Notes under the pieces: generated by a model | Database searches by the model: none | Told to the model about the DNA's origin: nothing | The model's input: the letters and a program-made list of their open reading frames with translations, nothing else | Virus record (IMG/VR): IMGVR_UViG_2617271072_000007 | Source: a virus | Taxonomy: Duplodnaviria > Heunggongvirae > Uroviricota > Caudoviricetes | Strand: one strand, 5' to 3' | Length of the DNA stretch: 41,644 nt | Shown here: positions 1 through 41,175 of the stretch, one piece after another | How the letters are laid out: every line of letters begins with the position of its first letter | Numbering within the stretch: position 1 is the first letter of the stretch | Translations under genes and position numbers: made by a program

Positions 1-420
1 ATGAAAACACACATTGATAATATAAAACCGGGACAAATGTTGATTCTCACATTCCCTGTAGGGGATGATAATTTCACATTCTATGAGCAAAATGCGAATG
101 TCATTGCAAAACTAAATGATTCTGCTAGAGACTCAATAATTAACATATACACATATTCACGCTCATTAATACAATCATTTAAAGGAAACAACAAACTCAT
201 TGAGGATTATGAAAAAATCCTTATTGGCATGGCAGACAATAACAAAGATAAAACCATGTATAAGAGATTACATGATGCAAAAATAAATGTAATGGTAGAT
301 TATGCTCAAGGGATAAAAAATATTGATGCAGAGCTAAGAGATGCAGTCAATAAGGGATTCGACATTATCGACCAAGAAGTAAAGTCACTACAAATGAAAT
401 TAAACAAATTAGCTTCATAG
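1..420 (+). CDS. hypothetical AT-rich cargo protein; may be 5'-truncated by the window edge
   Basis: 139-aa ORF starting at nt 1, much lower GC than the phage backbone, convergent with the invertase gene; no recognisable motif. Confidence 0.4.
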   Translation: MKTHIDNIKPGQMLILTFPVGDDNFTFYEQNANVIAKLNDSARDSIINIYTYSRSLIQSFKGNNKLIEDYEKILIGMADNNKDKTMYKRLHDAKINVMVDYAQGIKNIDAELRDAVNKGFDIIDQEVKSLQMKLNKLAS

Positions 421-469
421 AATGCTCCACTCCCTGTTCAATATTTTTACAAGCTTATCAGCCAACCGC

Positions 470-494
470 AGCACGTTCTTGCATACGACGTGCT
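470..494. terminator. putative hairpin between convergent genes
   Basis: 7-bp stem AGCACGT / ACGTGCT with 11-nt loop; weak T tract after it. Confidence 0.3.
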
Positions 495-500
495 ACGGTT

Positions 501-1055
501 TCATTTATCTCCCACCGGAAACCTCTTATACAAAGTCGATATGCCAACATCATAGATGATCGCTACCTTCAGGCGAGGAACTCCTGATGCAATTAATCGT
601 CCGGCCTGTGCCCATTGTTCTGGTGTAAGTTTGGGACGTCGTCCACCAATTCGTCCCTGTGCGCGAGCAGCTTCCAGTCCTGCTTTTGTTCGTTCAACAA
701 TCAGTTCACGTTCCATTTCAGCCAGGGCACCCATCACATGAAAGAAAAAGCGCCCCATTGGGGTACTGGTATCAATTGAATCCGTCAGACTACGAAAGTT
801 GATGCCTCGTTCGCGCAACTCCTCCACCAGCACGACAAGATGCCGCATACTGCGCCCCAGTCGGTCCAGTTTCCAGACCACCAGCGTATCACCTGCCGAT
901 AATGTCCTGAGTAGTTTTTTCAGTCCCGGCCTTTCGGACTTTGTACCGCTTATCTTGTCTTCAAAAATCAGCTCGCATCCTGCACAGTTCAGCGCATTAC
1001 GTTGTAGATCTGTGTTCTGGTCATTTGTTGACACACGTACATAGCCAATAAGCAT
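501..1055 (-). CDS. serine recombinase, DNA invertase (Pin/Gin/Hin/Cin family)
   Basis: N-terminus MLIGYVRVSTNDQNTDLQ with catalytic Ser, VVWKLDRLGRS and C-terminal HTH; RBS GGGAGA before the ATG at 1055; track ORF 501..1091 starts earlier in frame. Confidence 0.9.
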   Translation of the reverse strand: MLIGYVRVSTNDQNTDLQRNALNCAGCELIFEDKISGTKSERPGLKKLLRTLSAGDTLVVWKLDRLGRSMRHLVVLVEELRERGINFRSLTDSIDTSTPMGRFFFHVMGALAEMERELIVERTKAGLEAARAQGRIGGRRPKLTPEQWAQAGRLIASGVPRLKVAIIYDVGISTLYKRFPVGDK

Positions 1056-1121
1056 GGTAGATCTCCCTGACAAAAGCAGGAATGATGCCATTTGCTCGTT
1101 ATTTCTGCATTTTCATAAACG

Positions 1122-1149
1122 TTGGTTTTGGAGAAGGTGCTAACTGGGT
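1122..1149. repeat. left crossover (gix/hix-like) site of invertible segment
   Basis: TTTTCATAAACGTTGGTTTTGGAGAAGG; inverted match to 2919-2946 (about 18/20 in the core). Confidence 0.55.
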
Positions 1150-1417
1150 TATGTTACCTGGAGGAATGATAATTCAGCGTGTTTATCTTGGATTTCCTGT
1201 CGGAACCAATGTAAGACACATAACTTTCCCCCGGTCGTTTACAACAACGAACTATTCAATCTCAATTAACTGGAATGATATCGGTACTGCAACAACTGAA
1301 ACACAATCTCCAGCAAATGTGGCGGTTGTTCATCAAACAAAATCATTAACAGGGGCCAGCATCTGGCAGGCAGGTCCCGGGGGATTTAATGTGGACATTA
1401 TAGCGGTGGGGTATTGA
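1135..1417 (+). CDS. alternative tail-fibre C-terminal variable segment (silent orientation, no own start)
   Basis: Open frame beginning inside the left crossover site with GFGEG, matching GLGEG at the right site in the expressed fibre. Confidence 0.55.
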
Positions 1418-1848
1418 TATGTACGTATGGAGCGCTAAAGCAAATGGCTTTTTCCCCATATCGGAGAAAGAAAAAATTTGAGGCATCAGGTCTGTGGCCT
1501 GATGATGGTGTAATAGTCAGTGAAGAAGAACATAAAAAGTTATTTATGGATATTCCACCAAGAAAACAGATTGGAACACAGAATGGAAAACCAGCACTGA
1601 TAGATATTCCTCAGCCGACCAAAAAGGAATTAATCGCTATTGCTGAAGTTAAAAAATCCCAATTACGGGAAAAAGCTGACAGTGAAATATCCTGGCGTCA
1701 GGATGCTGTTGATGCTGATATCGCAACTGATGAAGAAACTTCAACTCTCACCGAATGGAAGAAATATCGTGTGCTGCTGATGCGTGTTGATACTTCAACA
1801 GCACCCGATATTGAATGGCCTACGCCTCCGGCAGTTCAGGCCAGATGA
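1414..1848 (+). CDS. alternative tail fibre assembly protein (silent orientation)
   Basis: C-terminus [13 protein letters not shown] parallels [13 protein letters not shown] of the expressed assembly protein; convergent overlap with it. Confidence 0.65.
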
Positions 1849-2422
1849 CATCCGGCGCGGTGCTGGTATCTGTTACCGTCACCGCGTCAATGTAATCCAG
1901 CACGGCGTTAAGTCGGGTTGTTTCTGCCTGCGTCAGCTTCCGCCCGGCCTGTAATTTCAGTTGAATCAGACTGATGGAAGCCATTGCAGTATCAATCAGT
2001 GACTGACGCTGTGCTTCTGCCGCTCCTACTGCGGCGCTATGCTGTGCCTCAGTATCGGTCACCCATTTCTCACCATCCCATTTATCGTATAGCGTTAATG
2101 GGGCGATAGTGGTTGTATTTTCAGGATAATCACCCGGTGCTGTGATTTCTTTCGATTCTCCTGTTTCGGTGCTATAGACGATTTCACTGCGATGGTCTGG
2201 CACATATTCCCACGAGTTATAATCTGCAGAACGGCAAATTGCATAACCAGCTTTATATGAGCCGGGAGCATCTAAACAGGAACATGCCGGAATGCCGACA
2301 CCCACAGCAAGATATTCAGTTGATGTGAAAATATATTCCCGTGTTTCACCATCATAGTTATAAACCGTAATATTTCCTGCCTGGGTGGCGATAAATTCGT
2401 TATTTAATACAGCGTAATCCAT
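1820..2422 (-). CDS. tail fibre assembly protein (expressed orientation)
   Basis: 200 aa; start overlaps the fibre stop (TAATG); typical Tfa-like sequence. Confidence 0.85.
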
Positions 2423-3288
2423 TATGCAGCCCTCACAATATACGCAAATGCCAGGTTACGTGGTCTGGTTTCTTTAATTAAAGAGGAGGCATCAGGTGAA
2501 CTCACTGATTCAGCACCATTTCTTCCACCAGTGGTATAAGTAAAAACTCGCTCACTGTTAGACCAGTAATCCACACCAACTGTTCTTGCTGATGAAAAAA
2601 TGGTTTCATCAGATATAACCTGTTCTATTCCATACGGGATATTAGTAACTGACCCCACTTTTGTAGGTATTCCATGATTATGAGAAATTACTGCATGCTC
2701 TTGATTCGTTAATAAAGTACGACCGCTATCCACTCCACGCCCGTCATCCCAGCCACGAATAAACTCACCACGTAAATCAGGCAATTTATTTGTCGGGTAA
2801 GCCTTTGCCAGTTCCGGGTATTCTTCAGCAGAAAAAGCCGCACCATTGCATTTCAACCAGCCTGTTGGCGGAGTGGCTGAAGGCCATGGAACAGGCACAC
2901 CAACAGGTAATGCAGAGCCTTCTCCCAAACCAAGGTTTTCGAGAGCCGTTTTCACCGTGCCGTCCGATTTGATATCGCCAAACGGATTCTTGCGGCTCAG
3001 GTATTCAACAGCAAACCCCGATCCCAGCAATTCAACAAAACCGGGCAGATCACCATTATCAAGCACATCCCGTTGCGTTTTATCACTTACAAACTGGGCC
3101 AGAGCTGCAGCAATAAAGCTGGCCTGCCGAATAACCTTATTGACTTGCGCACTGGAGGCTTTCCCTGCTGTAAATCCAGATAAAAGCACGGGCAACGCTT
3201 CCCATTCCTCCTGCGATATAACATTGGCATTTCGATCCGTTGCAAACGCTTTAAAGTCATTTTTCGCCATCAGAGTAATACTCCCCAT
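2422..3288 (-). CDS. tail fibre protein; constant N-terminal part plus invertible C-terminal part
   Basis: 288 aa; right crossover site lies inside the gene at about 2919-2946. Confidence 0.85.
2919..2946. repeat. right crossover site of invertible segment
   Basis: CCTTCTCCCAAACCAAGGTTTTCGAGAG, inverted copy of the 1122-1149 site. Confidence 0.55.
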
Positions 3289-3951: not shown

Positions 3952-5147
3952 GACTCCACCGTTATAACGATATTTTCCGGGGTACAGGACGCAGATTCGT
4001 TGTATCTGATATCAATGTTTGATGACGACAAAGCCCCCGGGGATTTCCCAATCGTCAGTTCCTGAATATCGTAATAGCGTGCATTCCCGCCACTCACCAC
4101 GCCAAGATTCGCCGGTGAGTAAATGCGACTTAAAAGGACCGAATCACCAATCATCAGACTATTGATATAGTCGGAAATAGCCTGCTGGATCTGCTGCCCT
4201 ATCTGTGAGGTATAACCCGTAAAAACTTTTAATTTAATCCGGGCATAAACAGGCACATCACTGGAACGCGAGAATTTGATTACATGGGGATTGCCGTATT
4301 TATCCGGAACCGTAACGGATGTTGTACCGTGAGTGGCTGTCCCCTGGCCTTTATTCCCTCTGATAGCCTGAGCAATATCCGTCACATCACCGCCATCTAC
4401 AATTACAGCAACAGAGTGTGGCGGTAACCCGTTACCGTCCTCCGAACCAGTATCGTTTTCATAGAGTTTGTGGCGGGTTACACCGGTAACATTAGAAACA
4501 GCACCATCCAGTGCTTCAAATGGGGTTATTGATGGCAACGCAACACTTTGCGACTGGCGGATACGTAACTCCGCATCAGTTTCTGCCGGAGTGCCCACAG
4601 TGGCTGCAGCAGGATTGGTTACCGAAACCCAGCCACGGGTTGGCGTATTAATTTCAGTGATAGTTCCAGCCAGCGCCGCCACTGCACCACTGACGGAACA
4701 TGTTGCGGTCACCATCACTGTACCATCCACGCCTACCACCACTGAAGCAGGCAAACGCCATATCACATTATTACTGTCTTTCACGCTGCCATTAATGATG
4801 GTTGTTCCGGCAGTTCCTGTAAGAAGCAAATCAACCGTAGAGTTCGTCGCGCCTTTACGTGAAATACCATTTATTTTCACGTTACTGGTCAGTGCAGCCC
4901 CATAGCCGGTTGCCGGTGAAAAACAGTTGTAGACAGTTATCGCCGTATTATTGGCATCATGAATCGCCAGCGCCATCAGAGCCACCATCTGGCCGTCTTT
5001 GCTGTCCGGTTCGAGGTAGGCATCACTACCATAAATCTGCTGAAAATAGCTAATCAGGGTGCTGAGTATCGTCTGATAATCAGGCGCACTGATCCCCTCC
5101 GCGGTTACCTTTGCAGATAAACCGAGAGAATCAAGGTTCAGAGCCAT
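3948..5147 (-). CDS. baseplate J-like protein
   Basis: 399 aa; conserved position between W-like and gpI-like genes. Confidence 0.8.
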   Translation of the reverse strand: MALNLDSLGLSAKVTAEGISAPDYQTILSTLISYFQQIYGSDAYLEPDSKDGQMVALMALAIHDANNTAITVYNCFSPATGYGAALTSNVKINGISRKGATNSTVDLLLTGTAGTTIINGSVKDSNNVIWRLPASVVVGVDGTVMVTATCSVSGAVAALAGTITEINTPTRGWVSVTNPAAATVGTPAETDAELRIRQSQSVALPSITPFEALDGAVSNVTGVTRHKLYENDTGSEDGNGLPPHSVAVIVDGGDVTDIAQAIRGNKGQGTATHGTTSVTVPDKYGNPHVIKFSRSSDVPVYARIKLKVFTGYTSQIGQQIQQAISDYINSLMIGDSVLLSRIYSPANLGVVSGGNARYYDIQELTIGKSPGALSSSNIDIRYNESASCTPENIVITVES

Positions 5148-5501
5148 TACGCCTCCGATGTAACAGTCGTTATTCCATAAAGAGTGTCGATTTCAGCGGA
5201 AAACATGACACGTCGGGTCGTGGTATCCACCGTCGTATTGAAAGAGAGGATTGATTTAACGCCCTGCGTTTCCAGAATGCGCTTACGGATCGCCAGGTTG
5301 TAGGTTTCCGGCTTCTGCCTGCCCAGCACGGACTGGATCCATGGAGTCCCTTCGGTGGTGTCGAGAAACCATTGCCCATACCACAATTCGAATCGCGTTT
5401 TTTACCGCCTGCGCCACGGCCTCCGGTGAGTTAATCAGCCAGGTGTCATCACCGCTGCCAAAGGTGTAATCACCATCGGCGTCTTCACGTCTGTATCGCA
5501 T
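5147..5501 (-). CDS. baseplate wedge protein (gp25/W-like); frame broken by a 1-nt indel
   Basis: ORFs 5283..5501 and 5147..5386 join into one protein if the A6 run (plus T6 at about 5398-5403) is A5. Confidence 0.6.
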
Positions 5502-6253
5502 CAGTTTACCCCATCGGTATTGCTTCCACCGCGCTGAACACCGCCATGAGTGTGCGTATCATCGATTGGCTTGCCGTTAGCCTTAACGCTCCCCAAGAAC
5601 TCAACAGCACCAATGATTTTTGAAGCCACACCAGAAACAACAGACCCCACCATGCCCCCCATCCAGGTTAACAGGCCATGAATGGTTACTTTCTCAGAAA
5701 AATCAGCCAGAGGGGCAACCACATCAAGACCACCCGGGGCGACAATTTTAATTTTCCGGGTATCAGGATTAAGCTCAAAATAGGTGCTGCCGTCGTCACT
5801 ACGCAACTGTGTGGCACTGGTATTAATACCGCTAATCTTCCTCGCCTGCGACTGGGGACCGACAATACAAAACGCATCCGATAAATCATGCATTCTGTCA
5901 TCGACCGGCTCCTGTATCCCACCGCTCTGCCACCAGAAATCAATACAACGATCGGCAAAAACGACAAGACACTCATCCCCGGCTTTAACCGGAAAAGTCA
6001 ACGTACAGCCTCCGCCGCGCGGAAATACCACTGGCACATCCACCAGCAACGGGTAATTTTTGGTAATGCGGTTACCGTCGTTATCCTTTTCAACCGAACG
6101 GATAGCTGGCTGCACAACCGCCGTCACCGCGTCGGGATCGAATGACTGAACAATGCCAGGCAAGGCGACACGGATCTGGTTCTTTGTTGTTTCCCGTTCA
6201 GATTTGAATGTTTCGGCAAGGTCGCCGCTGCGGGTCTGGTCAGATACTGCCAT
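5501..6253 (-). CDS. baseplate spike / assembly protein V-like
   Basis: 250 aa, follows the hub gene in conserved order. Confidence 0.7.
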   Translation of the reverse strand: MAVSDQTRSGDLAETFKSERETTKNQIRVALPGIVQSFDPDAVTAVVQPAIRSVEKDNDGNRITKNYPLLVDVPVVFPRGGGCTLTFPVKAGDECLVVFADRCIDFWWQSGGIQEPVDDRMHDLSDAFCIVGPQSQARKISGINTSATQLRSDDGSTYFELNPDTRKIKIVAPGGLDVVAPLADFSEKVTIHGLLTWMGGMVGSVVSGVASKIIGAVEFLGSVKANGKPIDDTHTHGGVQRGGSNTDGVN

Positions 6254-6270
6254 TTAGTAGGCTCCAGAAA

Positions 6271-6298
6271 GCAAAAAACCCGCCGGGTGGCGGGTTCA
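6271..6298 (-). terminator. rho-independent terminator
   Basis: Minus-strand stem AACCCGCC / GGCGGGTT with 4-nt loop followed by U6. Confidence 0.7.
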
Positions 6299-6312
6299 TT
6301 ATTGAAGTTTCA

Positions 6313-6552
6313 TTACTGCTTGTTTGCTTCTAACGCTTCAGCTATTCGGCGAAGATACTCATTGTTTTTAAATGAAACCATGATGCACTCAAAGAATATT
6401 CGGCAAAATACAGCACATAACAAAAGCACTAAAGCGCCAGCAGCCTTCCCATTAACAAACGTTATAATGGCGGCAACAACCAGAAGTAACATTGTGATGC
6501 CATACAGAACGTTGATGATTTTTGGAGTTATTAATTTATCAAATCCGAACAT
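6313..6552 (-). CDS. small inner-membrane protein (moron)
   Basis: 79 aa, two hydrophobic helices, RBS AGGAA, followed by its own terminator. Confidence 0.6.
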   Translation of the reverse strand: MFGFDKLITPKIINVLYGITMLLLVVAAIITFVNGKAAGALVLLLCAVFCRIFFECIMVSFKNNEYLRRIAEALEANKQ

Positions 6553-6605
6553 GCGACAAATTCCTTATCGTGAAAGTAGAAGTATCACATTATAATTACG
6601 AGTGA

Positions 6606-6947
6606 TTAATCAACAATCTTTTTGCATGGAAAGGAACCGATGATTTTCGGCGCATCCATGCTGTTCTGCAGCAGTTGGACATTCAGGAATCGCGTTTCGG
6701 TACCAGGGCGACGAATGTATTCAAAGCCGTAGTTGTTACCGTCTTTGGCAGGCATAAGCCCCATGTCTACTTTCAAACCATTGGTACCCAGTTCGGTGAT
6801 TTTTTGAGAGGTAACTTTTTCACCGTTGATTGTCGATAACTCGCCCTGGTTTGCAACCATAGTGTAGCCACCGCATTTAACCGTGAAGCCATCCGCCCAC
6901 GCACTGCACGCAGAAAAGACAGCTAACAGAAAAATAATACCCCTCAT
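6606..6947 (-). CDS. secreted protein or lipoprotein (moron)
   Basis: 113 aa; signal peptide MRGIIFLLAVFSAC with possible lipobox Cys; RBS AGGGGA. Confidence 0.6.
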   Translation of the reverse strand: MRGIIFLLAVFSACSAWADGFTVKCGGYTMVANQGELSTINGEKVTSQKITELGTNGLKVDMGLMPAKDGNNYGFEYIRRPGTETRFLNVQLLQNSMDAPKIIGSFPCKKIVD

Positions 6948-6950
6948 TGC

Positions 6951-8012
6951 TCATCCCCTTTGCAAAGCCGATTGCGTATACAGATCCGCCGCGCCACGCG
7001 CTTCGCACATCATATCCATGTACCACGCCTGGCCCCTTGTATCGCCACTGTACATAATCCCGCGCACAATATAAACGCCATCCGTTGCGATGCTGGCAGG
7101 CTGCGATGTGGTGCCGCTGAGCGTGATATTTCCGTCCGTGTTCTGGTCGGTGATCTGACCACCAGCCATCGCAATATCGTTGTTCGACAACGCGGTACGA
7201 TAGACGGAAGCCTGATCCAGCTGAATGAGCCCGTTAACCCGGATGTTCGGATTAATAAGAGCGCGGACGTTTACGCCGTTGCCGATGGTCTGCTGCGGCA
7301 TGCCAATAAGCCCGGTAGCACTGTTGAGCACAATCGCTTCGTGAACATATTCATTAGTCGCCACCATCTGGCGCTGACCGTCCACGAATTGCCATGTTGC
7401 GCCACATTGCTCGGCTACGTTATCCATTAGATGCCGCGTCATGCCAAAGAGCACCCGCCCCCGGGGGAATACAGTAGCAGGCATTTCAGGCGTCAGGCCT
7501 TCGGTCACACCTTTGGCTTCGAAGTCTTTCATCAGCGCACGGTTCACATCAGCGACCGTGTAACCGGCAGCCAGCGTCTGTGAGGTTATACTGGTGGCAA
7601 AAGCCAGATCAGTATCTGCTGCCTGAATCAGGACGTAGGAATCAACCGGACTGTCTTTTCCTGTGACCGAGTAGCGAATTTCACCGCTGAAAATCAGTCC
7701 GTAGTTGCGACCATCACTCTGGCCCACGTTCGCCGCGTCAACTTCCCGCACTGTCCCGACGTCGCTTGCCGACACCTCCGGCGCGATACCGTCGTAACCC
7801 GCAATCAGACGCACTTTCGAAAACTCCTGCCCGGTAATTCGGTTCACAGTATCTGCCGAAAGGTTATAAATTTTGATAGTCCCTACCCGGGACGCGCTGC
7901 TGATGTTGAACCAGTCGATCGTAAAGGTGACTTTGAAATCACTTAGCTCAATTCCCTGACCGTTCCCGTCCACAAGCTGCAGCTCGAAATGTCTCATCCA
8001 GTTCTGTGACAT
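6951..8012 (-). CDS. baseplate hub protein (P2 gpD / Mu gp44-like)
   Basis: 353 aa, position between tape measure module and spike. Confidence 0.65.
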   Translation of the reverse strand: MSQNWMRHFELQLVDGNGQGIELSDFKVTFTIDWFNISSASRVGTIKIYNLSADTVNRITGQEFSKVRLIAGYDGIAPEVSASDVGTVREVDAANVGQSDGRNYGLIFSGEIRYSVTGKDSPVDSYVLIQAADTDLAFATSITSQTLAAGYTVADVNRALMKDFEAKGVTEGLTPEMPATVFPRGRVLFGMTRHLMDNVAEQCGATWQFVDGQRQMVATNEYVHEAIVLNSATGLIGMPQQTIGNGVNVRALINPNIRVNGLIQLDQASVYRTALSNNDIAMAGGQITDQNTDGNITLSGTTSQPASIATDGVYIVRGIMYSGDTRGQAWYMDMMCEARGAADLYTQSALQRG

Positions 8013-24851: not shown

Positions 24852-24980
24852 AGCTCTGACCTCTACGTTTTGCTACGAAAAAAAATTTTCTGAGAACTAC
24901 GTCTGTTTATCCGTGGGTGGGATAACGCAGTTCCGATTCGCTTATTACACGCTGTTATGTGCAAAAAATTCCTTGTTCGG

Positions 24981-32474: not shown

Positions 32475-33116
32475 ATGTCACAGCCCGTATTAACTAATCA
32501 CCTTAAAACTCAAATCATCAATAACGCACTTGAGAAAGCGGGTATTCCCAAACGTAAATCAGCACTACGAGCTACTCGTGTTGAATGGGCCGAACGTGTT
32601 CGGCTTGCAGCTATCGGGGGCGTAGAGAAAGAAGCTGAAATATTAAAAAATATAAAAAGATTGAATCCATGGTCACAAAAATCCTCTGATTCATTAAAAA
32701 CCAATAGTTCTTTAATTCGAAAAGATTGCTGCATATATCTCAATCTGGCTGGAGCCAGAGCAAACATTTATTTCAATGGCAACTACAGAGGTTATGAATC
32801 AGGAGCCCCCGAGCATATTAATAAAATAGCACCTGCAGAATTTACTCTACTTGGCGAAGATCCTCTGGTAACGGAGTTTTATAGCTTTGATGCTCTCTAC
32901 ACACAAATTAAAAGTGATGAAACCGAAATCATACAGAACGTCAGCGCGGCTCTAAATAAAGTTCGGACAGTAAAACGATTACTGGATGTATGGCCCGAAG
33001 CTAAAGAACTGCTTCCAACAGACGCACCGCCAGTCCCTTTAGCACCAGCAGTACATCGAGAGACATTAAATGAAATGATAGGCCTTCCTACCAATACAGT
33101 GTCTGATACTCAATAA
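32475..33116 (+). CDS. hypothetical protein, AT-rich
   Basis: 213 aa from MSQPVLT with RBS GAGGGA; track ORF 32445..33116 starts at an upstream GTG. Confidence 0.5.
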   Translation: MSQPVLTNHLKTQIINNALEKAGIPKRKSALRATRVEWAERVRLAAIGGVEKEAEILKNIKRLNPWSQKSSDSLKTNSSLIRKDCCIYLNLAGARANIYFNGNYRGYESGAPEHINKIAPAEFTLLGEDPLVTEFYSFDALYTQIKSDETEIIQNVSAALNKVRTVKRLLDVWPEAKELLPTDAPPVPLAPAVHRETLNEMIGLPTNTVSDTQ

Positions 33117-33799
33117 CAAGGGGGATGCTTATTATATGATTTTGAACGTTTTACAATCTCGTTAAGAGGCGTGAAATCAAAATCTCTGAATAACACATCA
33201 GGATACTTCGCTCTTGCTTTATCCAGCAGACCAGTTAAAGTATTTTTTGTGTTACCCAACATTGTATTAACCGCCACTACATGTCTAATTTCTGGAGGTT
33301 TATCTATACCACCAGAAATTGCTTCATTAAGAACCGACGCCAGTGGGGTTTGTCCCTTACTTGTTGAATCCCACAGCGTCATTAACAGACGAGCTGCGTC
33401 TATAAATAGCTTTTTGTCAGCATTTGGCTTGACAGTAATACCAGAACTACCTGAGCCAGAACCGGAACGTTCTATTGCTGCACTGGTATCCGATTTCATA
33501 GGATTAAATAACGGCAGCTCTGTACAACCGATACGCCGAATGAAATCCTTTGCAACATCTCTACCACAGAAAAAAGCCCCTGTACAATTTTCATCAGAGC
33601 GTTTTTTAAATGAAAAACAATAGTACTGATCGGTTAACGGATAACCGGAATAACTGGTTTTAGTTTGTCCAGTAATAAGTTTCAGGTGTGCAACAGGCTG
33701 AATAATAAAATCCCGAACTATCGCATCTTTTATGTCGTTACCACGGTGACAATAATATTCAGGTAATCCATTAGGCTGTCTCTTATTACCCACAGTCAT
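33110..33799 (-). CDS. hypothetical two-domain protein, AT-rich, antisense to the operon
   Basis: 229 aa; Cys/His-rich N-domain, SGSGSGSSG linker, C-domain; convergent 7-nt overlap with the preceding gene. Confidence 0.55.
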   Translation of the reverse strand: MTVGNKRQPNGLPEYYCHRGNDIKDAIVRDFIIQPVAHLKLITGQTKTSYSGYPLTDQYYCFSFKKRSDENCTGAFFCGRDVAKDFIRRIGCTELPLFNPMKSDTSAAIERSGSGSGSSGITVKPNADKKLFIDAARLLMTLWDSTSKGQTPLASVLNEAISGGIDKPPEIRHVVAVNTMLGNTKNTLTGLLDKARAKYPDVLFRDFDFTPLNEIVKRSKSYNKHPPCY

Positions 33800-35931: not shown

Positions 35932-36960
35932 TCACTTAAAATCCCTAGATAACATCTGCGAAGCAGCTGATGCTGTATAAACTCCAGTATGTTTTATTTC
36001 TGCAGCTATTTTGTAGCCATCCTCCTTAAACTGCGTAAGCATTGAGCTTAAGGAACCAAGTTTTTTAGTATTCAACACCATTCTAACGACAGTTCCTTCA
36101 TGATAATGACCTAACTCTATATGCTTCTTTCCGTGTTCATCTAGATATATTGCATGGTCACCGCTACAAATAAGAAAACTACCGCCAAGTTTACATATAC
36201 GGCTGATCATATAAAGGCCAAATCCCGAATTATGCCAAGGATTTCTTGTATTGATTCTCGCCCCCTTAAAATTTTTACTAGAAATAGATGGCATTAACGC
36301 TAACTGAATGGCTTCAGAATCATTATCAGCTTCTATATAAGGGTTCTTCGATAGAGATTTTTTCATTCCTATACCATTATCAGAAATTGTTATTTCAACA
36401 CGGTCATAAGAAGGCCAATACTGTGCACAATATTCAATCACCTTTGAATCACTATGTTCCACAACATTACGCATAATTTCCCTAATAGAAAATGTCAAAG
36501 CATCAATGAGGTCGCCTTCTTCTTGGCGAGCAAGAATCTTTGCTAATTTACCAGATCGTTCCTCAACTATCTCTTGCACCTCAGTATATTTATCGTTAGC
36601 TTCATCTATAACTGTTTGAACACGAAGAATTGTAAATGGAACAAAATTATTATTTCCATCTGTACATCCCGGTTCACGGCCATGCTTTAACCCGAAGGCT
36701 CGAAAGAATGCCATATTTGCGGCATAATCCTTATTCTCATGCCCGCTACAAAAAAGTTTAAAACCATCAATGTTCTTTTTCTGTTTTCGATGGAAGTCTC
36801 GAATATGCTTAGCAACATAAACCATTGTAAATGGTTCAATCCTTCCCATATGCGAAAAATCGATTGTTATTTGCTGTTGACCTGAATGTTTTTCAATTTC
36901 ATTGCAAAAATTAAATATCTTTTCAGGATTACATGAAGAGGGAAATAAGATTCGTGACAT
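35932..36960 (-). CDS. GHKL-type (histidine-kinase-like) ATPase with unknown N-terminal domain; cargo gene
   Basis: 342 aa; N-box NVVEHSDS, G1 DNGIGM, G2 GFGLYM; AT-rich; opposite strand to the operon. Confidence 0.65.
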   Translation of the reverse strand: MSRILFPSSCNPEKIFNFCNEIEKHSGQQQITIDFSHMGRIEPFTMVYVAKHIRDFHRKQKKNIDGFKLFCSGHENKDYAANMAFFRAFGLKHGREPGCTDGNNNFVPFTILRVQTVIDEANDKYTEVQEIVEERSGKLAKILARQEEGDLIDALTFSIREIMRNVVEHSDSKVIEYCAQYWPSYDRVEITISDNGIGMKKSLSKNPYIEADNDSEAIQLALMPSISSKNFKGARINTRNPWHNSGFGLYMISRICKLGGSFLICSGDHAIYLDEHGKKHIELGHYHEGTVVRMVLNTKKLGSLSSMLTQFKEDGYKIAAEIKHTGVYTASAASQMLSRDFK

Positions 36961-37020: not shown

Positions 37021-37308
37021 ATGTCTTATGAACGTGAGAGCCTTATCGAAAAGCACCTCGTCGCTGAAGTGAAAAAGGCTGGCGGTGTGGCCTTTAAGTT
37101 CGTATCTCCCGGTCGCCGCTCGGTACCGGATCGCATTGTTCTGCTACCCGGCGGCCGTCTTGTTTTCGTTGAATGCAAAGCACCCGGCAAAGCACCACGC
37201 GCCGACCAGTTGCGCGAGCACGAGCGGCTGCGCGAGCTGGGCTTTACCGTGGTGGTGCTGGATAGCAAAAATCTGGAGGAAATTATTTTAAGCCGCAATA
37301 AAAGATAA
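37021..37308 (+). CDS. VRR-NUC nuclease
   Basis: 95 aa; PDRIVLLPGG ... FVECK PD-(D/E)xK core; GC-rich. Confidence 0.75.
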   Translation: MSYERESLIEKHLVAEVKKAGGVAFKFVSPGRRSVPDRIVLLPGGRLVFVECKAPGKAPRADQLREHERLRELGFTVVVLDSKNLEEIILSRNKR

Positions 37309-37320
37309 AAGACTTATGCT

Positions 37321-37905
37321 TTAATCCGTATTTTTAACACGTGTTTCGAAACACTCTTTTAATTTAGCTATTTCCTTTTTAGAGGACATAACTGTGAATT
37401 TCATCCCTTTTAAATCATTAACAAATTCAAATTTTGCGCTATTGGACTCACAATCACCAACAACAAAACCACTACCAAATGAATTGAGCAACACTTTAGT
37501 ATTACTACCATCTACCATATAATATTCGTTATTTTTAAATGCAGTAACCTTCCCGAAGGTATAGCTCAATATCAATAATGTCATCACCCCTAAAGGAAAA
37601 GCTGATTTTAGGATTTTTAAATCGATATAATAAAATACGTCTTTATACTCTGCAAGCCTCCCAAACTTTCTAATGCTATCCATATGATGTTCGTGTCTCT
37701 TACTATGGATTGACGCGGACACCGCATTGTGGTAATTCAACAAAAGCAGAGCAAATAATAAAATATCTCCAACACTCATCACAGAGGTTTCGGAGAAATA
37801 ACCAAAAGGCCAATGAAATCCTATTATGTAAAAATTAGGTATTAGCATAACCACTATAAATATAATAAATGGAACATAATATTTCCCTTTCAAATCAAAC
37901 ATCAA
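37321..37905 (-). CDS. membrane protein, AT-rich cargo
   Basis: 194 aa; three N-terminal hydrophobic helices plus about 80-aa soluble domain; likely ATG at 37902. Confidence 0.6.
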   Translation of the reverse strand: MMFDLKGKYYVPFIIFIVVMLIPNFYIIGFHWPFGYFSETSVMSVGDILLFALLLLNYHNAVSASIHSKRHEHHMDSIRKFGRLAEYKDVFYYIDLKILKSAFPLGVMTLLILSYTFGKVTAFKNNEYYMVDGSNTKVLLNSFGSGFVVGDCESNSAKFEFVNDLKGMKFTVMSSKKEIAKLKECFETRVKNTD

Positions 37906-38183
37906 TGTCGCGTATAAGGCACCGAGAAATAAAAACTAAAAAACAAAAGCCATACAGCCGAATACAATAGCGTATTTAAATCTATTTTAATAAAAAAGGG
38001 CTGGATAGCCATAATACGATGCAACACCTTTCTGAAAAGAATATGCCATCGCATAAGCTAAACGCTGAAAAAACAGTTAATAAAGAAACTTGTTTTGTAA
38101 GTATTTTTGCCAGGGGCATACCCGCCTCCGTTAGTTATATATATAGAGAGAGAATTGACACATATTCTACCATAGGTGTATTA

Positions 38184-39578
38184 ATGAATAACATATTCCA
38201 CCCCCGACTTTATCAAAACCTCATAATCAATCACCAAACCGACATTCTGCGCGGCAACATCTGGGCAGGGATGGGGATGGGTAAAACCGTAGCGACACTC
38301 ACCACGCTGGAAGATCTTTTCATGGCTGGAGCAGAAACACACCCCGCGCTGGTCCTCGCGCCGCTACGCGTTGCAGCAAGCACCTGGCCTGATGAAGCTG
38401 TTAAATGGGGGCATCTGCGTAATATTGAGGTACAGCCGATCATCGGTAACGCCAAAGCGCGCTCTACGGCGCTGGCGAACAGCAACGCGAGCGTGTTCAC
38501 CATCAACTACGATAACCTTGTCTGGCTGGTTGAAGAATTGGGAGAACGATGGCCGTTCGGAACTGTCATTCCAGATGAAAGCACCCGGCTAAAATCCTTC
38601 CGGCTGCGAGGTGGTGGTAAGCGCGCGGCGGCGCTGGGCAAAGTGGCGCATAAGTATGTCCGGCGCTGGATAAATCTCACCGGTACGCCAGCACCGAACG
38701 GCCTGGTAGATTTGTGGGGACAATCGTGGTTTGTGGACCAAGGGCAACGTCTCGGGCGCACTTACGGCGCGTTTACCTCACGCTGGTTCAACTCGATACA
38801 GTTTCCGGGACAGAGCTGGACTAAACTGGAACCTTTTGCTCACTCACAGGGTGAAATACAGCGAGCATTAGCCGATGTGACCCTCTCGCTGGATGCGGCC
38901 GACTGGTTCGATATCAAAGACCCCATCCATAACGTAATCCGCGTGGATATGCCCCCGAAGGCCCGTCAGCAGTATCGTGAAATGGAAAAGGAAATGTTCC
39001 TCGAGCTGAATGGCGAAGGCATCGAAGCACCGAACGCCGCGGCAAAGACACTGAAGTGTCTTCAAATCGCTAGTGGTGCAGTATACACAGACGACACCGG
39101 AAGTTGGTCAGAACTGCATGACACCAAACTACAGGCGCTGGACAGCATACTGACCGAAGCAGCTGGCGCACCTGTGCTGGTTGCTTATCACTGGAAACAC
39201 GATCTTGAACGCTTGCTTAAAGCATTCCCTCGCGGTCGTCACCTCGACCAGGATCCACAGACACTGCGCGACTGGAATTCCGGAAAGATTCCTGTTCTCT
39301 TTGCACACCCAGCCAGCGCGGGCCACGGCCTGAACATGCAGGACGGCGGAAATATACTGGTATTTTTCTCACACTGGTGGGACCTGGAGCAATATCAGCA
39401 AATTATTGAACGTATCGGCCCCACCAGGCAGATACAGGCCGGACACAATCGTCCGGTATTTATTCACCACATTATTGCTGCCGACACTATGGACGAAATG
39501 GTGATGGAGCGGCGCAACTCAAAACGAACAGTGCAGGACATCCTGCTCGATGCCATGAAAAAGAGAGGTATAGCATGA
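38184..39578 (+). CDS. SNF2-family helicase
   Basis: Walker A GMGKT, DExx box VIPDEST; start MNNIFHPRLYQ; the 38019 upstream extension is unlikely to be real. Confidence 0.85.
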   Translation: MNNIFHPRLYQNLIINHQTDILRGNIWAGMGMGKTVATLTTLEDLFMAGAETHPALVLAPLRVAASTWPDEAVKWGHLRNIEVQPIIGNAKARSTALANSNASVFTINYDNLVWLVEELGERWPFGTVIPDESTRLKSFRLRGGGKRAAALGKVAHKYVRRWINLTGTPAPNGLVDLWGQSWFVDQGQRLGRTYGAFTSRWFNSIQFPGQSWTKLEPFAHSQGEIQRALADVTLSLDAADWFDIKDPIHNVIRVDMPPKARQQYREMEKEMFLELNGEGIEAPNAAAKTLKCLQIASGAVYTDDTGSWSELHDTKLQALDSILTEAAGAPVLVAYHWKHDLERLLKAFPRGRHLDQDPQTLRDWNSGKIPVLFAHPASAGHGLNMQDGGNILVFFSHWWDLEQYQQIIERIGPTRQIQAGHNRPVFIHHIIAADTMDEMVMERRNSKRTVQDILLDAMKKRGIA

Positions 39579-39775
39579 GCGAGAAACCCGACGATTTACT
39601 CACCCCGGATGAAGTATGCCAAAAGTTAGGTATTACACAGAAAACGCTATGTGAGTGGAATATTAAGCATCGTCATCGGGCTATCCTGGCACCAATTCGT
39701 TTCAGTGCAAAAGTAGTTCGTTATGAGCGCCGCAATGTCGACGCTTTTATTCAAAAGTGTCGCAGCCGGTATTAA
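39575..39775 (+). CDS. xis: AlpA/Xis-type excisionase or DNA-binding regulator
   Basis: 66 aa HTH; start overlaps the SNF2 stop; convergent with the integrase. Confidence 0.7.
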   Translation: MSEKPDDLLTPDEVCQKLGITQKTLCEWNIKHRHRAILAPIRFSAKVVRYERRNVDAFIQKCRSRY

Positions 39776-41175
39776 CCTCGCCGCCGTAGCAATGCCACCT
39801 GCGCAAGTATGCTCCGCTCGTGAGCCTCGAAAGCTTCGCGCTTTAACGCAATCTCTTCCTGCAAAATCTCATCAGAAAAGTCGTAATGTTCTGCCATCGG
39901 GTCATCTGACTTGCTGGAGTGGTGAAGGCAAAGGAGGCTGATTTCCCTTCGGTCTGATCGGGAATAGCCTCTTTCCTTCATCAAGGCAATAACATTGCTC
40001 TTAAGGAATTTACGGCACATCGTATTAAATGCACCGTCTTTCCCTTTAACAGTCCCATCATGTTTTATTCCTTTTACAGCCCCATCCGGGCTGTATGTTT
40101 TCACTAGCTTATCCAGTGATCGTTTTGAAAATGGCTGCATTGGATCACGCGGCTGCAAAAATACATAATCCCTGTTGCACTCAGGAACTGAATCACGCCA
40201 TGCTTTCTGCTCGTCGATAATCCGCCGGATCTCCGGCGTTATTGGCAGGCGGAAAGCCTTTTGTGTTTTCATAGCCCCTCGCATGCCGATAACCCCTTCA
40301 GGATAAACAATTTCGCCAGTCTCCTCGTGAACGTAGTCCCAGCGCAGGTTATGGACATTAATCGGACGAACGCCGGTGATGATCATGAAGCGAACAGCAT
40401 TCTTCTGGTGTACAGAGGTGCAGGCGGCAACATTGAGCCAGAGCCGGGCGATTGACTCAATATCGGTAAAAAGCCGTGTGGGGGTGGGTTTCTGTACGCG
40501 GGAGGAAACATAATCATCTGGCAGACTGGCAGCAACATTGCGACCGTTACAAAGAGTAGGTGCGCAGAACTTCCAGAACCGACGGAGCTCGGCAAACAAC
40601 TCCAGGGCGTTATTGTTCGAGCGAGTGGCGATCCACTCGTCCAGCACTTCCACTAGCCGATTGTATGTTACGTCGCTGAACACCTCACGCTCGCCGAACG
40701 TTGCTTTAATCCGGTCGATACGCACCCCGTAGGTTGTGAAACTGTCCGGGCTCAGCTTCTGCCGGGCGACTTTGGCTTTGAGGTCATCCCGGTACATTTC
40801 CAGCGCTGCATGTACGGACTCTGCCCGCAAGCCACAGTCAGCCATACCTAGCGCTTTTTCGCGCGCCAGCTGGATAGCGAGCTCCGGCCACTCGCCGAGC
40901 TTTTTACCCTTGAGGCCCATCTTTTTTGGAAACTCGGCGTAAAATGTAACCTTACCGGCTTTGCTGAAATCGATACGGAGATAGTTCTCTTTTTCGTATT
41001 TGGAACGGCGAGCCACGCCGGAAGCAGCGAGGATGATTTTGGCGGCAGCAACACAGATTTTCATGTGTGCGCTGGTATAGGGGGGTTTACAGGCGTCCCA
41101 TTTTTCAGATGCGGCTAAAACATCGTCATTATTGGGGCTATCCGGATTATGTGTTACAGTGCGCGGCATTCTCAA
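39772..41175 (-). CDS. int: tyrosine integrase (P4-type)
   Basis: 467-aa ORF; true start may be MKICVAAAK at about 41064; sits at the prophage-chromosome boundary. Confidence 0.85.
   Translation of the reverse strand: MRMPRTVTHNPDSPNNDDVLAASEKWDACKPPYTSAHMKICVAAAKIILAASGVARRSKYEKENYLRIDFSKAGKVTFYAEFPKKMGLKGKKLGEWPELAIQLAREKALGMADCGLRAESVHAALEMYRDDLKAKVARQKLSPDSFTTYGVRIDRIKATFGEREVFSDVTYNRLVEVLDEWIATRSNNNALELFAELRRFWKFCAPTLCNGRNVAASLPDDYVSSRVQKPTPTRLFTDIESIARLWLNVAACTSVHQKNAVRFMIITGVRPINVHNLRWDYVHEETGEIVYPEGVIGMRGAMKTQKAFRLPITPEIRRIIDEQKAWRDSVPECNRDYVFLQPRDPMQPFSKRSLDKLVKTYSPDGAVKGIKHDGTVKGKDGAFNTMCRKFLKSNVIALMKERGYSRSDRREISLLCLHHSSKSDDPMAEHYDFSDEILQEEIALKREAFEAHERSILAQVALLRRRG

What the first reader, a model, noticed from the sequence alone, without database searches (positions are those of the whole stretch)
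37321..37905. AT-rich membrane protein inserted between VRR-NUC and SNF2 helicase
VRR-NUC and SNF2 helicase genes are usually contiguous in phage replication modules. Here a 194-aa, very AT-rich gene on the opposite strand separates them, encoding three N-terminal helices plus a soluble C-terminal domain. That architecture and context fit a superinfection-exclusion or abortive-infection effector. It may act with the GHKL gene at 35932-36960, although VRR-NUC lies between them.
Basis: partly seen in the sequence, partly recalled or inferred. Interest (0 to 1): 0.5.

Follow-up and report, generated by a model that had tools for sequence, protein, structure and literature searches.

The report
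Split membrane gene in prophage hotspot
The flagged 194-codon reading frame is the tail of a 265-codon gene that sequencing errors broke up; the gene encodes an uncharacterised inner-membrane protein and sits in a swappable anti-phage "cargo slot" of an E. coli prophage, so it is a reasonable but untested candidate for blocking other phages.

Summary
The ORF at 37321-37905 (-) exists and is AT-rich (33% GC against 54% in its neighbours). It is only the C-terminal 73% of a gene. In every complete E. coli genome checked, the same locus is an intact 798-bp, 265-aa CDS (window 37321-38119). The window differs from them there by three single-A indels. Across the whole window there are 23 such indels and only 6 substitutions against strain MINF_2E, which points to long-read sequencing error.

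The protein has five transmembrane helices with the N-terminus in the cytoplasm. Its roughly 75-aa C-terminal domain faces the periplasm and carries a co-varying cysteine pair. The AF2 model is confident (pLDDT 91) and has no match in PDB or BFVD. The protein belongs to a sparse, multi-phylum family that carries a weak precomputed Pfam label, PF27470 "TfpB". No member examined lies next to a pilin gene, and no partner gene recurs.

In about 160 sibling prophages the VRR-NUC/SNF2 gap is a variable slot:
- this allele in 17 genomes
- a roughly 24%-identical allele of the same family in 22 genomes
- BstA, Arc/Rha or Dcm cassettes in others

The GHKL link is not supported. Superinfection exclusion is the best guess, at about 0.35, and is untested.

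The parts
37321..38119 (-). Full gene as corrected: 265 aa, identical to WP_021529155.1 once the three indels are removed. In the window it is 799 nt long and broken by frameshifts.
   Evidence: RefSeq CDS of 798 bp at the same place in XH993, MINF_2E, A37, strain 48 and FDAARGOS_1059. Alignment to the window.
37321..37905 (-). It corresponds to residues 73-265 of the real protein: TM3, TM4, the basic cytoplasmic loop, TM5 and the C-terminal domain.
37930..38060 (.). Three single-base indels relative to all intact relatives: one A missing next to 37930 (an A5 run that is A6 in relatives), one extra A at 37992 (run 37992-37997), and one extra A at 38060 (AAA where relatives have AA). Most likely sequencing errors.
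   Evidence: The window carries 23 such indels in total against MINF_2E.
37324..37548 (-). C-terminal domain of about 75 aa (residues 191-265). The model shows a four- to five-stranded beta-sheet plus a C-terminal helix. It is predicted to be periplasmic and contains Cys223 and Cys256.
   Evidence: AF2 model with pLDDT 91. Positive-inside rule, and cysteine co-variation of 36 both / 35 neither / 4 one.
37549..37878 (-). TM3 (residues ~81-101), a short periplasmic loop (HWPFGYF), TM4 (~113-131), a basic His/Lys/Arg-rich cytoplasmic loop (132-170) and TM5 (~171-190).
   Evidence: Hydropathy, AF2 helices, K+R densities.
37906..38119 (-). Frameshifted N-terminal part (residues 1-72): TM1, the family's signature motif Y..AY.[FY]Q.G.A.[YF][YF]G[YF]P..FI.[IL]D at the TM1/periplasmic-loop junction, and TM2.
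   Evidence: Alignments A1-A3 and conservation table. A DNA pattern built from the motif hit only family members.
38125..38129 (-). Shine-Dalgarno sequence GGAGG, 5 nt upstream of the ATG at 38119.
   Evidence: Read from the sequence.
38136..38153 (-). (TC)4(TA)5 dinucleotide microsatellite between the SD and the putative promoter. Among relatives the copy number varies: TA 3-9, TC 4-5.
   Evidence: The spread of match lengths (872-883) across the 17 RefSeq genomes agrees.
38164..38172 (-). TGGTAGAAT, an extended -10-like element in the 64-bp divergent intergenic region. Identified by eye only.
   Evidence: Sequence. The consensus scan gave no more promoter hits than shuffled sequence.
37021..37308 (+). 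VRR-NUC nuclease, the left border of variable slot 2.
   Evidence: phrog_93 6.6e-31; Pfam VRR_NUC weak.
38184..39578 (+). SNF2-family helicase, the right border of slot 2. The true start is 38184.
   Evidence: phrog_62 7e-154; Pfam SNF2-rel_dom; RefSeq CDS.
35932..36960 (-). GHKL ATPase, the cargo of variable slot 1 (pol to VRR-NUC). It assorts independently of the target gene.
   Evidence: Pfam HATPase_c 1.3e-7, phrog_3364. Co-occurrence tables.

Best explanation
The feature is the 3' three-quarters of a 798-bp gene (window 37321-38119, minus strand). In this assembly three homopolymer sequencing errors break up the reading frame.

Shown or predicted from tools:
- The intact gene encodes a 265-aa polytopic inner-membrane protein.
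- Predicted layout: short cytoplasmic N-terminus, five transmembrane helices, a basic cytoplasmic loop between TM4 and TM5, and a ~75-aa C-terminal beta-sheet-plus-helix domain in the periplasm, probably held by a Cys223-Cys256 disulfide.
- It belongs to an uncharacterised family that is sparse but found in many phyla. Conservation is concentrated on the periplasmic face.
- It is a horizontally acquired, AT-rich 'moron' with its own ribosome-binding site. It sits on the opposite strand in the second of two cargo slots in the replication module of a temperate phage integrated next to yfhL.

Inferred:
- The lysogen expresses the protein, and it acts alone at the inner membrane or periplasm to stop superinfecting phages from delivering their genome. 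This would be superinfection exclusion rather than cell-suicide defence.
- It does not act together with the GHKL gene.
For: Gene structure and sequencing errors.

Real, constrained gene: dN/dS 0.06-0.29. There are 154 sequences in its 90%-identity cluster, from E. coli and Salmonella.

Family:
- 74 representatives at 50% identity.
- Every one of the 39 hits to a motif-derived DNA pattern is a family member by HMM.

Architecture:
- AF2 pLDDT 91, pTM 0.85 with a 75-sequence alignment.
- K+R density is 0.15-0.18 in the N-terminus, loop 2 and loop 4, against 0.02-0.09 in loops 1 and 3.
- The two cysteines are both present or both absent in 71 of 75 sequences.
- The most conserved residues are Y22, G31, G37, P39, I43, D46 and G189, at periplasm-facing helix ends.

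Moron and hotspot:
- GC is 32.6% against 54% in flanking genes.
- Slot 2 holds at least six alternative cassettes. They include BstA (1.4e-115) and a ~24%-identical second allele of this same family (HMM 1e-38) found in 22 genomes.
- Slot 1 holds TIR/PDC-S35 or the GHKL gene.

Mobility: a 62%-identical copy sits in an unrelated lambdoid Enterobacter prophage.

Defence or mobile-element neighbours of distant members: a type II restriction-modification system, an Old nuclease directly upstream, a TIR gene, and integrases.

No recurrent partner gene.
Against: - There is no functional evidence of any kind.
- There is no similarity to any known exclusion or defence protein in PADLOC or PHROGs.
- No fold match is available to guide a mechanism.
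- Expression in the lysogen is not shown, and the promoter scan found no more sites than in shuffled sequence.
- AT-rich genes in E. coli are often silenced by H-NS (established knowledge).
- Many distant family members have ordinary housekeeping neighbours.
- Slot 2 also carries cassettes that are not defence systems, such as Arc/Rha regulators and an orphan Dcm.
- The only database label, PF27470 'TfpB', hints at type IV pilus biology instead.
Confidence: 0.4

Rival explanations
1. Abortive-infection or toxic membrane effector. The protein senses infection, perhaps through its periplasmic domain or basic cytoplasmic loop, then permeabilises the inner membrane and kills the infected cell, in the manner of RexB-type or other TM effectors.
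For: - The same slot carries BstA, an abortive-infection protein.
- Neighbouring cargo consists of TIR and GHKL genes, typical of suicide-type defence.
- Distant members sit beside an Old nuclease and a YafO toxin.
- Truncated or frameshifted copies recur among the second-allele copies in slot 2 (M-17 195 aa, A34 split in two), which might reflect toxicity.
Against: - There is no cytoplasmic domain that could sense phage components. The ~40-aa cytoplasmic loop is absent from the 230-240-aa family members.
- Conservation is on the periplasmic side.
- There is no recurrent partner or sensor gene.
- The frameshifts may simply be homopolymer sequencing errors in an AT-rich gene.
Confidence: 0.15
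2. A TfpB/TfpY-like accessory protein. It binds the membrane-embedded segments of type IV pilins or pseudopilins, or another envelope machine, and so changes the cell surface (lysogenic conversion). Any anti-phage effect would be secondary.
For: - Precomputed Pfam label PF27470 'TfpB' on family members. It is unmarked (E<=1e-5) for P0006 and P0009 and 'weak' for most others.
- TfpY-like proteins are likewise ~240-aa inner-membrane proteins. They have a short cytoplasmic N-terminus, conserved TM helices and a variable periplasmic C-terminal domain (PMC11841053).
Against: - No pilin-like gene (G/FTLIE leader) occurs in any of the ~45 loci examined.
- No pilin family appeared among the listed Pfam hits of the neighbours.
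- The AF2 model has five TM helices and one small sheet. TfpY-like proteins are described as having three TM helices and two beta-sheet modules (PMC11841053).
- TfpY gave no phage defence in Pseudomonas (PMC11841053).
- The Pfam model itself could not be inspected because it is not in the local Pfam copy. That 'TfpB' refers to a Moraxella pilin-locus ORF is from memory only.
Confidence: 0.12
3. A moron or accessory membrane protein with a role unrelated to phage defence (envelope homeostasis, transport, niche fitness), or a helper for the phage's own lytic cycle.
For: - Several distant members are lone genes among housekeeping genes. Examples are Serratia, between proA and cytochrome b561, and loci next to GGDEF-EAL or hydrolase genes.
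- Together the two alleles occupy about 24% of these prophages (39 of about 162), which is high for one family.
Against: - Opposite-strand orientation and foreign composition.
- Replacement by BstA or other cassettes in most sibling prophages shows the phage does not need it.
Confidence: 0.2
4. In this particular strain the gene really is a pseudogene: the three frameshifts are true mutations.
For: None of the 5426 complete genomes matches the frameshifted form exactly. All three indels fall within 130 bp.
Against: The window carries 23 one-base indels and only 6 substitutions over 38.7 kb relative to MINF_2E, spread through many genes. That pattern is typical of long-read homopolymer error. 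The 2.5 kb around the gene has no substitutions relative to XH993.
Confidence: 0.1

Closest known systems
Pfam PF27470 'TfpB' (label seen only as precomputed hits)
   Same: Family members, including the 62%- and 27%-identical relatives, carry this Pfam hit. It is currently the only curated family that touches this protein.
   Different: - Hits to the closest relatives are flagged 'weak', and the query's own cluster has none on record.
- The model is absent from the local Pfam copy, so neither its extent nor its seed could be checked.
- No paper in the library describes it.
TfpY/TfpZ/TfpX/FimB pilin accessory proteins (Qaderi et al. 2025, PMC11841053)
   Same: Similar size. Inner-membrane proteins with a short cytoplasmic N-terminus. 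Conservation is concentrated in the TM region, and the C-terminal domain is periplasmic and variable.
   Different: [quoted passage not shown] This gene never is, in the loci examined.
- Three TM helices and two beta modules, against five TM helices and one sheet plus a helix.
- Sequence homology was not tested, because no TfpY sequence was available.
Prophage superinfection-exclusion membrane proteins (P22 SieA, T4 Imm, HK97 gp15; from established knowledge)
   Same: A single prophage gene encoding an inner-membrane protein whose exposed part faces the periplasm, the compartment through which incoming phage DNA must pass.
   Different: No detectable sequence or fold similarity. This protein is larger and has more membrane passes than those examples. 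No phenotype is known.
BstA abortive-infection protein
   Same: Occupies exactly the same slot and strand (between VRR-NUC and SNF2) in sibling prophages.
   Different: BstA is a soluble DNA-binding protein with no homology to this one. The resemblance is positional only.
phrog_35408 (function unknown)
   Same: Distant family members P0013 and P0017 match it nearly end to end (1.2e-5 and 1.5e-4), so the family is present in sequenced phages.
   Different: The window protein itself does not reach the threshold, and the PHROG has no annotation.

Membership tests
This uncharacterised 5-TM family (Pfam label PF27470 'TfpB') | Significant profile match over the full length | tested here: met
   The HMM built from the 75-sequence alignment scores the intact protein at 7e-77 and the second allele at 1e-38. 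The profile search found 74 representatives.
This uncharacterised 5-TM family (Pfam label PF27470 'TfpB') | N-terminal signature Y..AY.[FY][QE].G...[YF][YF]G.P..[FL][IV]..D | tested here: met
   Present at residues 22-46. A DNA pattern derived from it hit 39 stretches in three collections, all of them family members.
This uncharacterised 5-TM family (Pfam label PF27470 'TfpB') | Direct hit to the curated Pfam model above its gathering score | not testable with these tools
   PF27470 is not in the local Pfam copy. Only precomputed hits were available, mostly flagged 'weak'.
TfpY/FimB-like pilin accessory proteins | Gene lies immediately downstream of a major type IV pilin gene | tested here: not met
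   No pilin-like ORF in the window locus or in ~45 related loci.
TfpY/FimB-like pilin accessory proteins | Three TM helices, then a mixed beta-sheet with a beta-alpha-beta unit, then an antiparallel three-stranded sheet (PMC11841053) | tested here: not met
   The AF2 model has five long helices, then one 4-5-stranded sheet and a terminal helix.
TfpY/FimB-like pilin accessory proteins | Sequence homology to TfpY, TfpZ or FimB | not tested
   No reference sequences were obtainable. NCBIfam gave no hit at E<=1.
Superinfection-exclusion proteins | Encoded by a temperate phage outside its essential modules, and dispensable | tested here: met
   Replaced by other cassettes in most sibling prophages and in the induced phage vB_EcoM-606R2.
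Superinfection-exclusion proteins | Located in the cell envelope | tested here: met
   Prediction only: five hydrophobic helices, positive-inside topology, periplasmic cysteine pair.
Superinfection-exclusion proteins | Expressed in the lysogen and blocks DNA entry of other phages | not testable with these tools
   Needs transcriptomics and phage challenge experiments.
Superinfection-exclusion proteins | Homology to a known exclusion protein | tested here: not met
   No named PHROG, PADLOC, Pfam or NCBIfam hit. No BFVD fold match.
   - Only 7 of the 17 genomes with the target also carry the GHKL gene.
- The target also occurs with TIR or YfbU cargo.
- GHKL homologues at 86% identity occur without it.
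- No GHKL gene lies near distant family members.
Known defence systems (PADLOC-DB v2.0.0) | Match to any system component model | tested here: not met
   Zero hits at E<=1 for the full-length protein and for eight diverse relatives.

The most novel reading that the evidence does not exclude
The family is a new, widely scattered class of single-gene anti-phage proteins that face the periplasm from the inner membrane, have a fold not yet seen in PDB or BFVD, and block superinfection. In these E. coli prophages its expression would be modulated by slippage of the (TC)n(TA)n microsatellite just upstream of the ribosome-binding site, in the manner of a contingency locus.
Probability: 0.2. Interest if true: 0.65.

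Novelty: new member of a known kind. Interest (0 to 1): 0.38.

Why it matters
If the protein does exclude phages, it would add a defence or exclusion family absent from current catalogues (PADLOC, named PHROGs), with members from Enterobacterales to Planctomycetota. It would also come with a confident structural model on which to design experiments.

It documents a compact two-slot hotspot (pol | slot 1 | VRR-NUC | slot 2 | SNF2) in a common yfhL-integrated E. coli prophage. That hotspot could be mined for further cargo.

There is also a practical lesson: raw-sequence readers will mis-size AT-rich genes in long-read assemblies.

As it stands, this is an ordinary 'hypothetical membrane moron' with no functional evidence.

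Tried and rejected
- Pfam, NCBIfam, PADLOC and PHROGs scans of the fragment, the full-length protein and diverse relatives gave no informative hit.
- AF2 with only 7 close sequences gave pLDDT 50, which is unusable. It was replaced by a run on the 75-sequence alignment.
- tblastn of the protein against deposited phages and plasmids found no match.
- The search for related loci with the broad alignments failed for lack of a conserved stretch. With the close alignment it found nothing in the one-genome-per-species set. A hand-made degenerate DNA motif was used instead.
- A profile query to the search for homologous proteins was swamped by hydrophobic words, and the P0009 query found only Serratia orthologues.
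- Literature searches for PF27470, TfpB, tfpQ/tfpI and the RefSeq accessions found nothing on this family. The 'TfpB' of Acinetobacter baylyi is an unrelated PilB-like ATPase.
- The promoter/terminator consensus scan found no more sites than in shuffled sequence.
- GHKL coupling was considered and rejected.
- A recurrent partner gene was sought by all-against-all BLAST of neighbours. None was found.

Full report

An ORF does run from 37321 to 37905 on the minus strand (194 aa from TTG, 193 aa from the ATG at 37902). It lies between a small VRR-NUC nuclease gene (37021-37308, +; phrog_93 6.6e-31) and an SNF2 helicase (phrog_62 7e-154). It is strikingly AT-rich. The gene is 32.6% GC, against 54% for the polymerase, VRR-NUC and helicase genes and 36% for the GHKL gene.

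The ORF is only a fragment. In E. coli XH993, which is 99.9% identical over 2.5 kb, and in A37, strain 48, FDAARGOS_1059 and MINF_2E, RefSeq annotates a single 798-bp, 265-aa CDS ending at the same stop codon. The window differs from these by exactly three one-base indels:
- an A missing beside 37930
- an extra A at 37992
- an extra A at 38060

Comparing the whole window with its nearest relative, MINF_2E, gives 6 substitutions but 23 one-base indels over 38.7 kb. Most of the indels are in A/T runs, and they are scattered through many genes. That pattern points to long-read homopolymer error, so the frameshifts are most likely artefacts. The true gene is 37321-38119 (-). The 519-aa 'SNF2' ORF starting at 38019 is likewise an over-extension; the annotated start is 38184.

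**2. What the protein is**

The intact protein (P0001; WP_021529155.1 in RefSeq) has five hydrophobic helices, at roughly residues 13-30, 48-73, 81-101, 113-131 and 171-190.

AF2 with only seven close homologues was uninformative, with pLDDT 50. With a 75-sequence alignment of remote relatives the model became confident, with pLDDT 91 and pTM 0.85. It shows five long helices, a four- to five-stranded sheet (residues 200-243) and a terminal helix (247-264).

Topology follows from charge. Across the family, K+R density is 0.15-0.18 in the N-terminus, loop 2 and loop 4, but 0.02 and 0.09 in loops 1 and 3. That places the N-terminus in the cytoplasm and the C-terminal domain in the periplasm. Two cysteines (C223 and C256) are invariant in one subfamily. 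Family-wide they are either both present (36 sequences) or both absent (35), with only 4 exceptions. This fits a periplasmic disulfide.

The most conserved positions are Y22, G31, G37, P39, I43, D46 and G189. They lie at the periplasmic ends of TM1 and TM5.

Orthologues in E. coli, Raoultella and a more distant 57%-identical orthologue (P0007) give dN/dS of 0.06-0.29, so the gene is under purifying selection.

**3. The family**

A word-indexed search of 5.8 billion proteins found only seven clusters, sharing 57-100% identity. A full profile search found 74 representatives at 50% identity, 224-335 aa long.

There are two subfamilies. One has the cysteine pair. The other lacks it and ends in a (K/R)(I/V)GPL motif.

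A degenerate DNA pattern written from the N-terminal motif hit 9 stretches in the species-representative genomes, 8 in IMG/VR and 22 in metagenomes. Every hit encodes a family member by HMM. The hosts include Planctomycetota, Phycisphaerales, Omnitrophota, Thermoanaerobaculia, Eremiobacterota, Chromatiaceae, Rheinheimera and Izhakiella. Protein searches add Serratia, Enterobacter, Raoultella and Salmonella.

The only curated label is a precomputed Pfam hit, PF27470 'TfpB'. It is unmarked for P0006 and P0009 and 'weak' for most others. That model is not in the local Pfam copy, and no paper in the library mentions it. All source names are 'hypothetical protein'. Two distant members match phrog_35408, whose function is unknown.

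**4. Genomic setting**

The window is a complete temperate phage integrated beside yfhL, with its integrase at 39772-41175.

About 162 of 5426 complete E. coli genomes carry recognisable flanks of this region. Between the family-A DNA polymerase and the SNF2 helicase there are two variable slots, separated by the conserved VRR-NUC gene.

Slot 1 (pol to VRR-NUC) holds one of:
- the GHKL ATPase, as here
- a TIR protein matching PADLOC PDC-S35 at 7e-109, together with an ANR regulator
- ANR plus DUF4406 or DUF7446
- a hypothetical protein plus YfbU
- Ant

Slot 2 (VRR-NUC to SNF2) holds one of:
- this gene, in 17 genomes
- a 236-aa protein only ~24% identical but clearly of the same family (HMM 1e-38), in 22 genomes, truncated in M-17
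- BstA, full-length match at 1.4e-115
- an Arc/Arc/Rha cassette
- Dcm plus a 106-aa protein
- two small plus-strand genes in the induced phage vB_EcoM-606R2

The gene is therefore accessory cargo rather than a core gene. The slot it occupies also hosts an experimentally established defence gene.

The gene is also mobile:
- An 87%-identical copy sits in the same slot of a Raoultella prophage, with TIR in slot 1.
- A 62%-identical copy sits in an unrelated lambdoid Enterobacter prophage, between the lambda-P/DnaT replication genes and DinI/RusA.
- A 27%-identical copy is a lone gene between proA and cytochrome b561 in Serratia.

**5. The GHKL suggestion**

The GHKL gene occurs at >=99% identity in 8 genomes. 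Seven of them also have this gene, and the eighth (A4) has the second allele of the family. These are closely related prophages, not independent events.

In the other direction the association breaks down:
- 10 of the 17 genomes with the target lack the GHKL gene; the three of them examined carry TIR+ANR or YfbU cargo instead.
- The two other second-allele genomes examined (M-17 and 2013C-4465) carry different slot-1 cargo.
- Three 86%-identical GHKL homologues sit in a decayed element without any family member.
- Among 38 loci holding family members, the only GHKL gene found is in an E. coli-like metagenome contig.

All-against-all comparison of neighbours found no recurrent partner of any kind. 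The protein most likely acts on its own or with host components.

**6. Neighbours of distant members**

The neighbours are mixed. The defence or mobile-element neighbours are:
- a type II restriction-modification pair immediately upstream in an Omnitrophota MAG (REase_II 1.1e-66)
- an Old-family nuclease directly upstream in Chromatiaceae (1.1e-90)
- a TIR_2 gene
- integrases
- an Ant-domain protein
- a YafO toxin
- an HD-CE protein

Ordinary metabolic and signalling genes also occur. No pilin-like ORF occurs in any locus.

**7. Mechanism**

Shown or predicted from tool results:
- a real, constrained gene
- foreign composition and accessory status
- residence in a hotspot
- a predicted five-TM protein with N-in, C-out topology
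- conservation on the periplasmic face
- no partner gene

Inferred: because the conserved surface and the only globular domain face the periplasm, and there is no cytoplasmic sensing module, the most economical function for a prophage moron of this kind is interference at the envelope. That would be superinfection exclusion, blocking passage of incoming phage DNA or ejection proteins across the inner membrane. I put this at about 0.35.

Alternatives, with probabilities:
- a suicide-type membrane effector, about 0.15. This is favoured by the company the gene keeps and disfavoured by the lack of a sensor.
- a TfpB/TfpY-like accessory factor acting on pilins, pseudopilins or another envelope machine, about 0.12. 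The Pfam label and the general layout resemble TfpY-like proteins (PMC11841053), but the pilin linkage and the predicted architecture do not match.
- some non-defence role, about 0.2.

**8. Comparison with what is known, and novelty**

The protein cannot be filed under any named exclusion or defence family. It is a member of an uncharacterised family that Pfam has only recently labelled.

I rate it a new member of a known kind: prophage-borne membrane morons in defence hotspots. Interest is moderate to low until a phenotype exists.

The features that raise its interest are:
- the confident model with no match in the structure libraries searched (PDB and BFVD)
- the very specific conserved motif
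- the presence of two deeply diverged alleles of one family at the same slot
- a polymorphic (TC)4-5(TA)3-9 microsatellite just upstream of the ribosome-binding site, which invites a test for variable expression

Noticed in passing
whole window (e.g. 3334, 5398, 10820, 11115, 16900, 17342, 20283, 24662, 24878-24879, 28485, 32421): Relative to E. coli MINF_2E the window has 23 one-base indels, mostly in A/T runs, and only 6 substitutions. Other ORFs in this window are therefore probably split or mis-sized by assembly errors too.
   Followed up: partly
window 1117-2938: This segment is inverted relative to MINF_2E. In that genome it spans tail-fibre and tail-fibre-assembly genes next to a pinE-type recombinase, so it is a Gin/Pin-style invertible host-range switch caught in the other orientation.
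   Followed up: partly
window 38136-38153 (between the target's SD and the SNF2 start): A (TC)4(TA)5 microsatellite whose copy number differs among otherwise near-identical prophages (TA 3, 4, 5, 6, 7, 9; TC 4-5). It may tune expression of the divergent genes.
   Followed up: partly
window 35932-36960 (-): A lone 342-aa GHKL/HATPase_c protein (phrog_3364; weak similarity to the N-terminal part of DrmA). It is AT-rich (36% GC) cargo of slot 1 and is present in only 11 of 5426 genomes. Its function is unknown, and it is itself a candidate defence gene.
   Followed up: partly
window 33110-33799 (-): A third opposite-strand, lower-GC hypothetical gene (229 aa), between the Nmad5/DUF2815 genes and the polymerase. 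Relatives have different genes of 89-209 aa at this position, so it looks like another variable slot. It gave only a weak IetA-like hit (E 0.03).
   Followed up: no
L032 (E. coli M-17) 2531-3118; also A34, 8D, 97-3250: The second allele of the family is truncated (195 aa, ending in a poly-A run) or split in several genomes, and its matches are 712-713 nt long instead of 711. Either homopolymer errors recur or the gene is repeatedly inactivated.
   Followed up: no
L046/L050 5063-6793 and L065 3814-5544: In Chromatiaceae a full-length P2 Old-type nuclease (PADLOC 1.1e-90) lies directly upstream of a family member on the same strand, about 65 bp away. This may be a local two-gene arrangement. It is not seen elsewhere.
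   Followed up: partly
L007 (E. coli ET490) 3999-7077: An 86%-identical GHKL homologue sits in a decayed element beside a truncated VRR-NUC gene and a 523-aa protein matching PADLOC candidate PDC-M40B (2.8e-16).
   Followed up: no
window 38019-38183: The mechanical ORF for the SNF2 helicase starts at 38019 and overlaps the target's 5' end on the other strand. The annotated start in all relatives is 38184, which leaves a 64-bp divergent intergenic region.
   Followed up: yes
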